From Candidatus Bathyarchaeia archaeon (lineage in GTDB: Archaea; Thermoproteota; Bathyarchaeia; Bathyarchaeales; DTEX01), in assembly GCA_038897035.1 (NCBI GenBank), contig JAWAXF010000003.1, positions 64-64,063 on the forward strand: a DNA stretch of 64,000 nucleotides, in the 5' to 3' direction. Position numbers and translations under genes: made by a program. The notes beneath the pieces were generated by a model. The model saw only the letters and a program-made list of their open reading frames with translations. It did not search any database and was not told the DNA's origin. Position 1 is the stretch's first letter, and each line of letters begins with the position of its first letter. Below, piece after piece: positions 30,519 to 40,151 of this stretch.

Positions 30519-30596
30519 TGGTGGGGTCGCCAGGATTTGAACCTGGGTCACGAGGGCCCAAGCCTCGTAGCCTAGACCAAGCTAGCCGACGACCCC
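30519..30596 (-). tRNA. tRNA-Pro (anticodon UGG), no intron, CCA encoded
   Basis: The manual cloverleaf has acceptor GGGGUCG/CGACCCC, D stem GGCU/GGCU (two G-U pairs), anticodon arm CGAGG-CUUGGGC-CCUCG, T arm CCAGG-UUCAAAU-CCUGG, and discriminator A followed by CCA. Confidence 0.85.
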
Positions 30597-34533: not shown

Positions 34534-34656
34534 GCCCTCAGAAGAAAGCCCTTAGAATTAGAATTAAGGCTCAAATGCCCACAAATCCAGCTCCTTAAAT
34601 GGACATAAGGGGCAACTCTATAGCCATGAATTGTATAAGGCTCAGAATTTAAAAAG

Positions 34657-34813
34657 TGGCGGGCCCGGAGGGAATTGAACCCTCGACCTTCCCGAAGCGC
34701 CCCGATGCCATCAGAGCGCCCTCGCGGGTGTCTCCTCAGAGCGGCTTAAGAGCATCAGCCCCGCCGCCTTTTAGGGGCAGGACCGCCGCTCTACCTTGCT
34801 GAGCTACGGGCCC
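34657..34813 (-). tRNA. tRNA-Lys (anticodon CUU) interrupted by three BHB introns (29, 17 and 34 nt), CCA encoded
   Basis: The exons join to GGGCCCG UA GCUC AGCAAGGUA GAGC G GCGGG CUCUUAA CCCGC GGGUC GAGGG UUCAAUU CCCUC CGGGCCC G CCA (77 nt). The introns lie at 34754-34782, 34730-34746 and 34689-34722. Each is flanked by two 3-nt bulges separated by a 4-bp helix: CGGC/GCUG, CUCU/GGAG and CCCG/CGGG. Confidence 0.8.
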
Positions 34814-34880
34814 ACGTTTTTCTCAGAAGAAAGATAAGTTAATTGGATAGTTAATAACTTTTCTCCTTTATGGTGTTGGT

Positions 34881-35687
34881 ATGAGTGAGCTCATATTTGT
34901 CGGGTTAGGTCTCCACGACTGCTTTGATATTTCGCTCCGCGGCCTTGAGGAGGTCAAGAGAGCAGATTATGTTTTCGCCGAATTTTATACGAGCCTGATG
35001 CCCGGCTTTAAGCTCGAAGAGTTTAAGAAAATCGTTGGAAAAGACATAATTATAGTTTCAAGAAAGAATGTTGAGGACGAGGATGGTAAAATAATTTTTG
35101 ATAAGGCCTTGCATGACAGAGTGGCTTTTCTTGTTCCGGGTGATCCTATGATTGCGACTACTCATATAGCCCTTAGAATTAAGGCTGAAAAGATGGGAAT
35201 TAAAACTAAGATTATCCATGGGGCATCAATACTATCAGCTGCAATAGGGTTATCGGGCCTACAAAATTATAGGTTTGGTAAGAGCGTCACAATACCATTT
35301 CCTGAGGGAAGCATTATATCGCAGATGCCCTATATAGTCATATCCGAAAATAAATCTCGTGATCTACACACGCTTTGTTTTCTGGACGTTAGAGCTGAAG
35401 AAGCGAGATATATGCGTATTAAAGAAGCCTTAGAAATACTTATAAGATTGGAGGAAATTAATAGGCGGGGTTTTCTCGGAGAGGATAGTCTCGCTGTCGG
35501 TGTTGCTAGAGCTGGGTCAGAGAAGCCTATTGTGAAGGCTGATGTCATAAAGGACTTAGTGAAGTTCGATTTCGGCGACCCACCACACATATTGATCATA
35601 CCAGCAGATAAACTCCACTTCATGGAGGCTGAGGCTTTAATAGCCTTAGCAGGGGCGCCAAGATGGGTAATGGAGATGATTAGATGA
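34881..35687 (+). CDS. dphB: Diphthine synthase
   Basis: LIFVGLGLHDCFDISLRGLEEVKRADYVFAEFYTS and VAFLVPGDPMIATTH are the tetrapyrrole-methylase-fold Dph5 signatures. Confidence 0.85.
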   Translation: MSELIFVGLGLHDCFDISLRGLEEVKRADYVFAEFYTSLMPGFKLEEFKKIVGKDIIIVSRKNVEDEDGKIIFDKALHDRVAFLVPGDPMIATTHIALRIKAEKMGIKTKIIHGASILSAAIGLSGLQNYRFGKSVTIPFPEGSIISQMPYIVISENKSRDLHTLCFLDVRAEEARYMRIKEALEILIRLEEINRRGFLGEDSLAVGVARAGSEKPIVKADVIKDLVKFDFGDPPHILIIPADKLHFMEAEALIALAGAPRWVMEMIR

Positions 35688-40072: not shown

Positions 40073-40151
40073 GGGGCCGTGGTCGAGCCTGGTCTAAGAT
40101 GCGCGCCTGGGGCGTGCGTGGTCGTGGGTTCAAATCCCACCGGCCCCACCA
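40073..40151 (+). tRNA. tRNA-Pro (anticodon GGG), no intron, CCA encoded
   Basis: The cloverleaf has acceptor GGGGCCG/CGGCCCC, anticodon arm CGCGC-CUGGGGC-GUGCG, variable loop UGGUC, T arm GUGGG-UUCAAAU-CCCAC, and discriminator A followed by CCA. Confidence 0.9.

What the first reader, a model, noticed from the sequence alone, without database searches (positions are those of the whole stretch)
34657..34813. tRNA-Lys(CUU) gene carrying three introns, each with a near-ideal bulge-helix-bulge motif
The 157-nt gene has canonical 5' (GGGCCCGUAGCUCAGCAAGGUAGAGC) and 3' (GGUCGAGGGUUCAAUUCCCUCCGGGCCCGCCA) tRNA halves, but 80 extra nucleotides. A consistent solution removes three segments.
- A 29-nt intron (34754-34782) lies inside the anticodon stem, between tRNA positions 30 and 31. 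Its central helix is CGGC/GCUG, its 3-nt bulges are GG|U and AU|G, and it has a 6-bp inner helix CCUGCC/GGCGGG.
- A 17-nt intron (34730-34746) lies at the canonical 37/38 site. Its central helix is CUCU/GGAG and its bulges are UA|A and AC|A.
- A 34-nt intron (34689-34722) lies in the variable loop. Its central helix is CCCG/CGGG, its bulges are CG|A and AA|G, and it has a 12-bp inner hairpin.
Splicing yields a perfect 77-nt cloverleaf with anticodon loop CUCUUAA and discriminator G.

Triple-intron tRNAs are known almost only from Thermoproteales-type archaea. This is therefore both a taxonomic marker and a gene that standard tRNA finders may miss or mis-assign.
Basis: seen in the sequence. Interest (0 to 1): 0.7.

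Follow-up and report, generated by a model that had tools for sequence, protein, structure and literature searches.

The report
Three-intron lysine tRNA gene, Bathyarchaeia
This is a real lysine tRNA gene interrupted by three small introns, a rare but known archaeal arrangement, and it sits in a hot-spring Bathyarchaeia genome rather than in the Thermoproteales where such genes were first described.

Summary
On the minus strand, 34813->34657, lies a 157-nt gene. Removing 34754-34782 (29 nt, tRNA position 30/31), 34730-34746 (17 nt, 37/38) and 34689-34722 (34 nt, 44/45) gives a 77-nt tRNA-Lys(CUU) cloverleaf with encoded CCA.

Seven further distinct orthologues carry the same three introns at the same positions: two from named Bathyarchaeia MAGs and five from metagenome contigs. 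Their exons are almost invariant. Their intron hairpins diverge with compensatory changes: 98% of cells paired, 10 pairs with double changes, 0/500 shuffles as high.

All three introns have the 3-nt bulge / 4-bp helix / 3-nt bulge core. Only intron 1 is a strict hBHBh' motif. Intron 2 is hBH-like with no inner helix. Intron 3 is HBh'-like with at most a weak, offset outer helix.

The three motifs share strands, so they cannot all form at once. I infer that introns 1 and 3 are removed first and intron 2 last.

The taxonomic inference fails. Neighbouring proteins are 58-86% identical (six of seven at 73-86%) and syntenic with MAGs labelled Bathyarchaeota/Bathyarchaeia.

The 30/31 intron occurs in tRNA-Lys(CUU) across many TACK lineages. 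The other two introns were seen only in this clade.

Verdict: a new member of a known kind, of moderate interest.

The parts
34657..34813 (-). Complete tRNA-Lys(CUU) gene: 157 nt, four exons, three introns, genomically encoded CCA.
   Evidence: Rfam tRNA model hit at 41 bits.
34783..34813 (-). Exon 1: tRNA positions 1-30 (acceptor 5' strand, D arm with position 17a, G26, anticodon-stem positions 27-30).
   Evidence: Identical in all 8 orthologues except G/A at position 26. This holds even in the metagenome hits, where exon 1 was not part of the search pattern.
34754..34782 (-). Intron 1, 29 nt, at position 30/31. Strict hBHBh' motif: outer helix AGAG/CUCU, central helix CGGC/GCUG, bulges GG|U and AU|G, inner helix CCUGCC/GGCGGG.
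   Evidence: Central helix 4/4 and outer helix 4 bp in 8 of 8 orthologues. Four of the six inner-helix pairs show compensatory changes. Shuffle P = 7e-5.
34747..34753 (-). Exon 2: positions 31-37 (G31, then C32 U33, anticodon C34 U35 U36, and A37).
34730..34746 (-). Intron 2, 17 nt, at the canonical position 37/38. Relaxed hBH / bulge-helix-loop motif: central helix CUCU/GGAG, bulges UA|A and AC|A, no inner helix. Its outer helix is the anticodon stem.
   Evidence: Central helix is 4/4 in 6 of 8 orthologues, with a C.A mismatch in L128 and L129. The outer helix reaches 5 bp only when intron 1 is removed.
34723..34729 (-). Exon 3: positions 38-44 (A38, anticodon-stem 3' strand CCCGC, G44).
   Evidence: Identical in L023 and L068, where it was not part of the search pattern.
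34689..34722 (-). Intron 3, 34 nt, at position 44/45 (variable loop). HBh' motif: central helix CCCG (tRNA positions 39-42) / CGGG, bulges CG|A and AA|G, 12-bp inner hairpin.
   Evidence: Central helix 8/8. Six of the eight inner-helix pairs tested show compensatory changes. 0 of 100,000 shuffles matched.
34657..34688 (-). Exon 4: positions 45-76 (variable loop GGUC, T arm GAGGG-UUCAAUU-CCCUC, acceptor 3' strand, discriminator G73, encoded CCA at 34657-34659).
   Evidence: Identical in L023 and L068, where it was not part of the search pattern.
34832..34844 (-). Conserved A/T-rich box AATTAACTTATCT at -31 to -19 from the tRNA 5' end. I infer it is the archaeal TATA/BRE-type promoter of the tRNA gene.
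   Evidence: Conserved in position in all 8 orthologues. Its function is inferred, not shown.
34651..34655 (-). T5 run one base after the CCA. I infer it is an oligo-T transcription terminator.
   Evidence: T-rich sequence follows the CCA in most orthologues. Its function is inferred.

Best explanation
This is a functional tRNA-Lys(CUU) gene of a hot-spring Bathyarchaeia archaeon. Its primary transcript carries three protein-spliced (bulge-helix-bulge) introns at tRNA positions 30/31, 37/38 and 44/45.

Shown: the sequence, the three 3-4-3 splice motifs, the cloverleaf obtained after excision, and the conservation and covariation of this layout in eight orthologues.

Inferred mechanism: the archaeal splicing endonuclease (EndA) cuts after the second nucleotide of each 3-nt bulge, and an RtcB-type ligase joins the exons.

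The motifs share strands. The outer strand of BHB1, CUCU (positions 32-35), is the central strand of BHB2. The central strand of BHB3, CCCG (39-42), is the 3' strand of the anticodon stem, which is the outer helix of BHB2. The transcript therefore cannot present all three sites at once. BHB1 and BHB3 are compatible with each other and can form in the full precursor. BHB2 can form only after the anticodon stem is assembled, which requires both other introns to be removed. The predicted order is introns 1 and 3 first, then intron 2.

Two of the three motifs are relaxed (hBH and HBh'). The organism should therefore have a broad-specificity endonuclease of the (alpha-beta)2 or epsilon2 type.

Evolution: the 30/31 intron is widespread in tRNA-Lys(CUU) of TACK archaea. 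The 37/38 and 44/45 introns were added in this Bathyarchaeia clade.
For: - The spliced product is a 77-nt cloverleaf called tRNA-Lys(ctt). Rfam tRNA hits at 41 bits.
- Eight distinct orthologues share the layout: window, L023, L068, L127, L128, L129, L130, L131. Their intron lengths are 26-32, 14-27 and 31-35 nt. All are hit by Rfam tRNA at 39.6-43 bits.
- Position-based pairing is 93% for intron 1 and 97% for intron 3, against at most 57% when partners are slid.
- On alignment A1, 98.3% of cells are paired, 10 pairs have double changes, 0 of 500 shuffles reach this, and slid controls give at most 58%.
- RNAalifold and the single-sequence minimum-free-energy (MFE) fold both recover BHB3 without any constraint.
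- Exons that were not part of the search patterns are still identical across orthologues.
- The gene keeps its place next to dphB, with a conserved upstream box and a T-run after the CCA.
- The same BHB at 30/31 is present in 44 of 119 tRNA-Lys(CUU) loci from other species.
- The literature supports the framework: archaeal tRNAs carry up to three introns; hBH and HBh' are accepted relaxed motifs; and one intron sometimes has to be removed before the next BHB can form (PMC8450103; PMC4090602; PMC4033280).
Against: - There is no RNA-level evidence. Transcription, the splice junctions and the splicing order are all inferred.
- Thermodynamic folding does not favour BHB1. Because exon 1 ends in CGGCGG, a register slipped by 3 nt gives a continuous helix. 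The best fold that contains BHB1 and BHB3 is 6.5-11.6 kcal/mol above the MFE at 37 C, and 2.8-7.0 kcal/mol above it at 75 C.
- Intron 2 has only an invariant central helix, so covariation says nothing about it. Two orthologues have a C.A mismatch there.
- I could not examine the endonuclease type of this genome.
- I could not exclude a second, intron-free tRNA-Lys(CUU) gene elsewhere in the MAG.
Confidence: 0.9

Rival explanations
1. It is a decaying tRNA pseudogene. The 80 extra nucleotides would be insertions, and the bulge-helix-bulge-like pairings would be fortuitous in a G+C-rich sequence.
For: A permissive scan of the 157 nt finds dozens of weak BHB-like candidates (central helix 4/4 plus a flanking helix of at least 2 bp). 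Weak motifs are therefore cheap in this composition. Intron 2's motif alone has a shuffle P of only 0.03.
Against: Eight diverged orthologues keep the exons invariant while their intron hairpins change by compensatory substitutions. The boundaries of conservation fall exactly at the predicted splice sites. The upstream promoter-like box and the synteny are conserved. Only the (31,60) and (91,125) candidates in the scan have long flanking helices.
Confidence: 0.02
2. It has a different gene structure: a tRNA with one long intron, as ARAGORN -i proposes (tRNA-Ser(GCU) with a 61-nt intron), or a two-intron solution.
For: With introns allowed, ARAGORN returns tRNA-Ser(gct) i(37,61) over exactly the same span.
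Against: That solution places the intron inside the anticodon triplet. It has no BHB at its junctions (it is not among the candidates with flanking helices). It also lacks the long variable arm that defines tRNA-Ser (established knowledge). Only the three-intron solution restores a complete cloverleaf with U33, A37, G18G19, a T-loop UUCAAUU and a 5-bp anticodon stem. Only that solution matches the conserved and variable blocks of the orthologue alignment.
Confidence: 0.01
3. The gene and its three introns are real, but splicing is not ordered as proposed. For example, the endonuclease might capture each motif from a rapidly interconverting ensemble in any order. Or intron 2 might be removed first through a non-nested fold in which its two bulges are closed by the exon 1 / intron 2 helix and by the central helix of BHB3.
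For: The BHB conformers are not the predicted ground state in any case, so capture from an ensemble is needed regardless. Intron 2 carries an 8-9-nt perfect antisense to exon 1 nt 22-29 in 5 of 8 orthologues, with a compensatory change in L128. In the full precursor, helices exist on both sides of both intron-2 bulges if non-nested pairings are allowed (inference).
Against: The CUCU strand cannot serve BHB1 and BHB2 at once, and the CCCG strand cannot serve both BHB3 and the anticodon stem. The exon 1 / intron 2 helix is absent in 3 of 8 orthologues. Scrambling it barely changes the predicted BHB3 probability.
Confidence: 0.25

Closest known systems
Three-intron pre-tRNAs of Thermoproteales, e.g. 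tRNA-Pro(UGG) of Pyrobaculum islandicum (introns at 25/26, 37/38, 56/57) and tRNA-Glu(UUC) of P. calidifontis (Sugahara et al. 2007/2008, as cited in PMC4090602 and PMC4390854)
   Same: Three short BHB-type introns in one gene, which is the known maximum. One canonical intron at 37/38 plus two non-canonical ones. A mix of strict and relaxed (hBH, HBh') motifs. Iterative removal is needed to expose all motifs (PMC8450103).
   Different: The isoacceptor is Lys(CUU). The positions are 30/31 and 44/45. The host lineage is Bathyarchaeia, not Thermoproteales. Here the triple layout is inherited vertically across at least eight diverged lineages of one clade.
Single-intron tRNA-Lys(CUU) genes with an intron at 30/31 in Sulfolobales, Desulfurococcales, Pyrodictiaceae, Thermoproteaceae, other Bathyarchaeia, Methanomethylicota and Nitrososphaerota (found here)
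   Same: Same insertion point. Same BHB built on exon strands AGAG-CGGC and CUCU. Similar 3' intron end (GCCGAG|G, GUUGAG|G, GCUGAU|G). In Bathyarchaeia, the same neighbourhood next to dphB.
   Different: Those genes carry only this intron, or this intron plus one other: L024 and L028 add 37/38, and L103 adds a variable-loop intron; L072, whose locus is cut before the 3' end, appears to as well. The window's clade carries all three.
Variable-loop intron at 45/46 of tRNA-Lys(CUU) in Acidilobaceae, Pyrodictiaceae, Ignisphaera and other Desulfurococcales. A 45/46 intron is also reported in tRNA-Thr(GGU) of Caldiarchaeum subterraneum (PMC3293823).
   Same: The architecture is an A, then a hairpin, then a 4-nt strand pairing with the 3' strand of the anticodon stem, then AA|G. 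The location is the variable loop.
   Different: The position is one nucleotide upstream here (44/45). The central helix is CCCG/CGGG on positions 39-42, instead of CCGU/GCGG on positions 40-43. I did not establish whether the two introns are homologous.
Three-intron nuclear tRNA genes of the red alga Cyanidioschyzon merolae (PMC3728597, PMC9602550)
   Same: Multiple ectopic BHB-like introns in one tRNA gene.
   Different: Eukaryotic host and different splicing machinery. Unrelated genes.

Membership tests
Archaeal BHB-type (endonuclease-spliced) tRNA intron | Two 3-nt bulges on opposite strands separated by a 4-bp helix, with the splice sites inside the bulges. | tested here: met
   All three introns have the 3-4-3 core at the junctions that restore the tRNA. 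It is conserved in 8/8 orthologues for introns 1 and 3, and 6/8 for intron 2, with one C.A mismatch in the other two.
Archaeal BHB-type (endonuclease-spliced) tRNA intron | Strict form hBHBh': both flanking helices have at least 2 Watson-Crick pairs (definition in PMC7714728). | tested here: inconclusive
   Met for intron 1 (outer 4 bp, inner 6 bp). Not met for intron 2 (no inner helix). Not met for intron 3 (no adjacent outer helix, only an offset 3-bp one in 6/8 orthologues). These two fit the accepted relaxed classes hBH and HBh' (PMC4090602).
Archaeal BHB-type (endonuclease-spliced) tRNA intron | Excision restores a canonical tRNA cloverleaf. | tested here: met
   ARAGORN calls the 77-nt spliced product tRNA-Lys(ctt) with perfect stems.
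Archaeal BHB-type (endonuclease-spliced) tRNA intron | The helices are maintained by compensatory change in relatives. | tested here: met
   10 pairs show changes on both sides, 98.3% of cells are paired, 0 of 500 shuffles reach this, and slid controls give at most 58%. The result is uninformative for intron 2, whose pairs are invariant.
Archaeal BHB-type (endonuclease-spliced) tRNA intron | Actual cleavage by EndA and ligation by RtcB. For relaxed motifs, a broad-specificity (alpha-beta)2 or epsilon2 EndA must be present in the genome. | not testable with these tools
   No RNA data are available. I could not read the rest of MAG GCA_038841375.1. I did not look for endA in the 64-kb window beyond the immediate neighbours.
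tRNA-Lys(CUU) | 7-nt anticodon loop with U33, anticodon CUU at 34-36 and a purine at 37, on a class I cloverleaf. | tested here: met
   The loop is C-U-CUU-A-A on a 5-bp stem GCGGG/CCCGC, with a 5-nt variable loop. The mature sequence matches the intron-free tRNA-Lys(CUU) genes of other archaea, apart from the T stem and positions 43-44.
   Neighbouring proteins are 58-86% identical (six of seven at 73-86%) and collinear with MAGs titled Candidatus Bathyarchaeota/Bathyarchaeia (L023, L068). The next-best matches, at 53-60%, are also Bathyarchaeia. Bathyarchaeia lies in a separate phylum, Candidatus Bathyarchaeota, in the NCBI taxonomy. The assignment rests on the submitters' record titles.

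The most novel reading that the evidence does not exclude
A clade of hot-spring Bathyarchaeia has vertically inherited a three-intron tRNA-Lys(CUU). This would be the first such lineage documented outside Thermoproteales. The gene was built by adding 37/38 and 44/45 introns to a 30/31 intron shared across TACK archaea.

Its three splice motifs are mutually exclusive. Maturation would then be an obligatory refolding cascade: introns 1 and 3 first, then intron 2. Intron 2 carries a co-varying 8-9-nt antisense to the D-stem / anticodon-stem strand of exon 1, which could act as a built-in folding switch.
Probability: 0.15. Interest if true: 0.6.

Novelty: new member of a known kind. Interest (0 to 1): 0.4.

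Why it matters
Genes like this are dropped or mis-typed by routine annotation. Here ARAGORN misses it or calls it tRNA-Ser, and Rfam sees a tRNA without an anticodon. A genome can then appear to lack tRNA-Lys(CUU).

The finding also shows that multi-intron tRNAs, taken in the literature as a hallmark of Thermoproteales, occur as a stable, inherited trait in Bathyarchaeia. They cannot be used as a taxonomic marker.

The set of 0-, 1-, 2- and 3-intron versions of one orthologous gene across TACK archaea is a clean natural series for studying intron gain and loss. The eight co-varying orthologues with overlapping splice motifs give a concrete substrate for testing ordered, refolding-dependent splicing by archaeal EndA.

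Tried and rejected
- ARAGORN's one-intron tRNA-Ser(gct) solution. Rejected: the intron splits the anticodon, there is no BHB at its junctions, and there is no class II variable arm.
- Exhaustive scan of the precursor for alternative BHB placements. It produced many weak candidates. Only (31,60) and (91,125) have long flanking helices. No 45/46 placement of intron 3 is possible in this sequence.
- Single-sequence MFE folding and RNAalifold as a test of BHB1. Both prefer a register slipped by 3 nt, allowed by the CGGCGG repeat. BHB1 is therefore supported by its position, its conservation in 8 of 8 clade members and 44 other species, and covariation of its inner helix. It is not supported by thermodynamics.
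- Hypothesis that the exon 1 / intron 2 antisense helix frees the 3' strand of the anticodon stem for BHB3. Scrambling it changed the predicted BHB3 probability only from 0.45 to 0.36 at 37 C and from 0.33 to 0.30 at 75 C. Not supported.
- E-value-level Rfam scan of the whole window for further hidden tRNAs. None found.
- Testing intron 2 on the MAFFT alignment. The alignment is not structure-consistent there, so I used splice-site-anchored counting instead.
- Literature. The library holds no paper linking Bathyarchaeia with non-canonical or multiple tRNA introns. Sugahara et al. 2007 (PMC1852824) is not held, so I could not check their full list of three-intron genes.
The window's own MAG was not among the hits. 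The taxonomic counts are therefore lower bounds, and a second gene copy cannot be excluded.
- L006 is cut inside the gene, so I did not use it.

Full report
OBSERVATION

The feature lies on the minus strand, 34813->34657, and is 157 nt long. It opens with a standard tRNA 5' half, GGGCCCGUAGCUCAGCAAGGUAGAGC. It closes with a T arm, the acceptor 3' strand, discriminator G and an encoded CCA.

ARAGORN folds this product as tRNA-Lys(ctt) with every stem Watson-Crick. In standard numbering, with one extra D-loop base (17a), the insertions lie at 30/31, 37/38 and 44/45.

Default ARAGORN does not find the gene. With introns allowed it reports tRNA-Ser(gct) with a 61-nt intron that splits the anticodon. 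Rfam's tRNA model detects the acceptor, D and T arms (41 bits, gathering threshold 29) but skips the anticodon arm as an 86-nt insertion.

THE SPLICE MOTIFS IN THE WINDOW

I anchored the motif on the splice sites: 4-nt central strand, then a 3-nt bulge cut after its second base, on each strand.

- Intron 1 is a strict hBHBh' motif. It has an outer helix AGAG/CUCU (4 bp), a central helix CGGC/GCUG (one G.U pair), bulges GG|U and AU|G, and an inner helix of 6 bp.
- Intron 2 has the central helix CUCU/GGAG and bulges UA|A and AC|A, but no inner helix. Its outer helix is the anticodon stem, which intron 1 interrupts. In the full precursor only one outer pair is contiguous. After intron 1 is removed there are five.
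- Intron 3 has the central helix CCCG/CGGG, bulges CG|A and AA|G, and a 12-bp inner hairpin. It has no directly adjacent outer helix. RNAalifold proposes a 3-bp helix between the last three bases of intron 2 (GAC) and GUC of exon 4, offset by the unpaired A38. That helix is present in 6 of 8 orthologues.

I shuffled each intron with the exons held fixed. A motif at least as good arose with P = 7e-5 for intron 1, in 0 of 100,000 shuffles for intron 3, and with P = 0.03 for the central helix of intron 2.

So 'near-ideal' describes intron 1. Introns 2 and 3 belong to the relaxed hBH and HBh' classes described in the literature (PMC4090602).

RELATIVES

The dphB product next to the gene occurs with an identical sequence on NCBI MAG GCA_038841375.1 (contig JAWBTX010000003.1) and on several hot-spring metagenome contigs.

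I scanned one genome per species for the 5' half followed by 0-30 nt and then GCTCTTA. Parsing them gave the following:

- 22 intron-free genes of 74 nt.
- Many genes with one intron at 30/31.
- Many genes with one intron in the variable loop at 45/46.
- A few genes with an intron at 37/38.
- A few two-intron genes (L024, L028, L103, and apparently L072, which is cut before its 3' end).
- Exactly two genes with the window's triple layout: L023 (Candidatus Bathyarchaeota archaeon JZ_bin_36.1) and L068 (Candidatus Bathyarchaeia archaeon ZZQ_201803_bins_111).

A metagenome scan anchored on exons 2-4 added five further distinct versions (L127-L131). Together with the window there are eight distinct orthologues. 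Their intron lengths are 26-32, 14-27 and 31-35 nt. All are detected by Rfam tRNA at 39.6-43 bits.

Exon segments that were not part of the respective search patterns are still identical, apart from G/A at position 26. These are exon 1 in the metagenome hits, and exons 3 and 4 in L023 and L068.

COVARIATION

I counted pairs by distance from the splice sites, so no alignment was needed. The central plus inner helices are 93% paired for intron 1 and 97% for intron 3. This falls to at most 57% when the partner is slid by 1-3 nt. The hairpin sequences of intron 3 cannot be aligned between orthologues, yet they always pair.

On the MAFFT alignment A1, I tested the structure acceptor + T arm + BHB1 + BHB3. 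It has 98.3% of cells paired and 10 pairs with changes on both sides. None of 500 shuffles reaches the observed values, and slid controls give at most 58%.

RNAalifold recovers BHB3 unaided.

The pairs of intron 2 are almost invariant, so they say nothing either way. L128 and L129 carry a C.A mismatch in its central helix.

The BHB at 30/31 is also present in 44 loci from other species. Its central helix is 4/4 in 42 of them, and its outer helix is 4 bp in all of them.

WHAT IT IS AND HOW IT MOST LIKELY WORKS

This is a functional three-intron tRNA-Lys(CUU) gene.

Shown: the gene structure, the motifs and their conservation.

Inferred from established knowledge of archaeal tRNA splicing: EndA cuts within the bulges and an RtcB-type ligase joins the exons.

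The motifs overlap. CUCU (tRNA positions 32-35) is the outer 3' strand of BHB1 and also the central 5' strand of BHB2. CCCG (positions 39-42) is the central strand of BHB3 and also the 3' strand of the anticodon stem, which is the outer helix of BHB2. The central and outer strands of BHB1 include the 3' strand of the D stem.

BHB1 and BHB3 do not overlap each other, so both can form in the full precursor. BHB2 needs the anticodon stem, which means both other introns must already be removed. The proposed outer helix of BHB3 uses the 3' end of intron 2, which fits the same order. I therefore predict that introns 1 and 3 go first and intron 2 last. [quoted passage not shown]

A conserved A/T box at -31 to -19 and a T-run after the CCA fit an archaeal promoter and terminator. 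That reading is inferred.

CAVEATS

There is no RNA evidence.

Thermodynamic prediction does not favour BHB1. Exon 1 ends in CGGCGG, so a register slipped by 3 nt gives an unbroken helix. The best fold containing BHB1 and BHB3 lies 6.5-11.6 kcal/mol above the MFE at 37 C, and 2.8-7.0 kcal/mol above it at 75 C. The enzyme would have to capture or induce the BHB conformer.

I could not determine the endonuclease type of this genome. I could not check for a second tRNA-Lys(CUU) gene elsewhere in the genome.

TAXONOMY

Seven proteins flanking the gene were tested by tblastn: radical SAM, S25e, cyclophilin-like, DphB, DUF357, a nucleotidyltransferase and an AP endonuclease. They are 58-86% identical and collinear with L023 and L068; six of the seven are at 73-86%, and only the cyclophilin-like protein against L068 is lower (58%). 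The next-best matches, at 53-60%, are other Bathyarchaeia loci that also keep the tRNA-Lys / dphB neighbourhood but carry only the 30/31 intron.

Bathyarchaeia is in a separate phylum, Candidatus Bathyarchaeota, in the NCBI taxonomy. [quoted passage not shown] The inference from that to this genome is wrong.

Within Bathyarchaeia the gene occurs with 0, 1 or 3 introns.

COMPARISON WITH WHAT IS KNOWN, AND NOVELTY

The mechanism and the class are known. The closest examples are tRNA-Pro(UGG) of Pyrobaculum islandicum (25/26, 37/38, 56/57) and tRNA-Glu(UUC) of P. calidifontis.

New here are the isoacceptor, the combination of positions, the host lineage, and the demonstration that the triple layout is inherited across a clade. 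The searchable library holds no paper that links Bathyarchaeia with non-canonical or multiple tRNA introns. That is absence from the library, not proof of novelty, and tRNAscan-SE 2.0 would probably annotate this gene correctly.

I rate it a new member of a known kind, with interest 0.4.

UNEXPLAINED

Bases 2-9 of intron 2 (GCCGCUCU) are a perfect antisense of exon 1 nt 22-29 (AGAGCGGC). This holds for 8-9 bp in 5 of 8 orthologues. L128 shows a compensatory double change (AGAGCAGC / GCUGCUCU). The shuffle P is 0.003.

The helix is predicted with probability 0.5-0.99 in the intermediate that lacks intron 1 in the four of those five orthologues where the test was in register (it was offset by one base for L128). 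It excludes the D stem, the anticodon stem and BHB2. My one functional idea, that it promotes BHB3, was not supported by scrambling in silico.

Noticed in passing
window 34738-34745 (-) pairing with window 34785-34792 (-): Intron 2 carries GCCGCUCU, a perfect 8-nt antisense of exon 1 AGAGCGGC (D-stem 3' strand, G26 and the start of the anticodon stem). It is 8-9 bp in 5 of 8 orthologues, with a compensatory double change in L128, and absent in L023, L127 and L129. Shuffle P = 0.003. Its role is unknown. A test of one idea was negative.
   Followed up: partly
L010, L012, L013, L016, L017, L020, L031, L033, L034, L052 and 34 other loci: An intron at 30/31 of tRNA-Lys(CUU), with the same BHB built on exon strands AGAG-CGGC / CUCU, is present in 44 of 119 species loci. 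These span Sulfolobales, Desulfurococcales, Pyrodictiaceae, Thermoproteaceae, Bathyarchaeia, Methanomethylicota and Nitrososphaerota. Either the intron is old or the site is a recurrent insertion point.
   Followed up: partly
e.g. L015, L030, L036, L040, L073, L094: Many Acidilobaceae, Pyrodictiaceae, Ignisphaera and other Desulfurococcales carry a variable-loop intron in tRNA-Lys(CUU) at 45/46 (CCCGUAG|ACC...GGGCGGAA|GUCCC; 16-52 nt). That is one nucleotide downstream of the window's 44/45 intron, with the same 'A-hairpin-4 nt-AA|G' build. I did not test homology between the two.
   Followed up: no
window 34783-34788 (-), exon 1 3' end CGGCGG: The tandem CGG repeat lets the 3' end of intron 1 (GCUG) pair in two registers 3 nt apart. 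MFE folding and RNAalifold choose the slipped, bulge-free register, not the BHB.
   Followed up: yes
window 34850-34862: A second conserved box (AAAAGTTATTAAC on the tRNA strand) lies in the 67-bp spacer between the tRNA gene and the divergent dphB gene. It is centred about 25 nt upstream of the dphB ATG at 34881. This looks like a TATA box for a leaderless dphB mRNA. It is conserved in all eight orthologous loci.
   Followed up: no
window 30519-30596 (-) and 40073-40151 (+): Two intron-free tRNA-Pro genes (UGG and GGG) flank the region. With permissive filters the GGG gene is reported as a sub-threshold tmRNA hit (36 bits against a gathering threshold of 47). This is an artefact of clan competition.
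   Followed up: no
L105 394-489 and 1750-1849 (+): A Sulfolobaceae genome has tRNA-Lys(UUU) and tRNA-Lys(CUU) genes 1.3 kb apart. They share the same 5' half, and each has a different canonical 37/38 intron.
   Followed up: no
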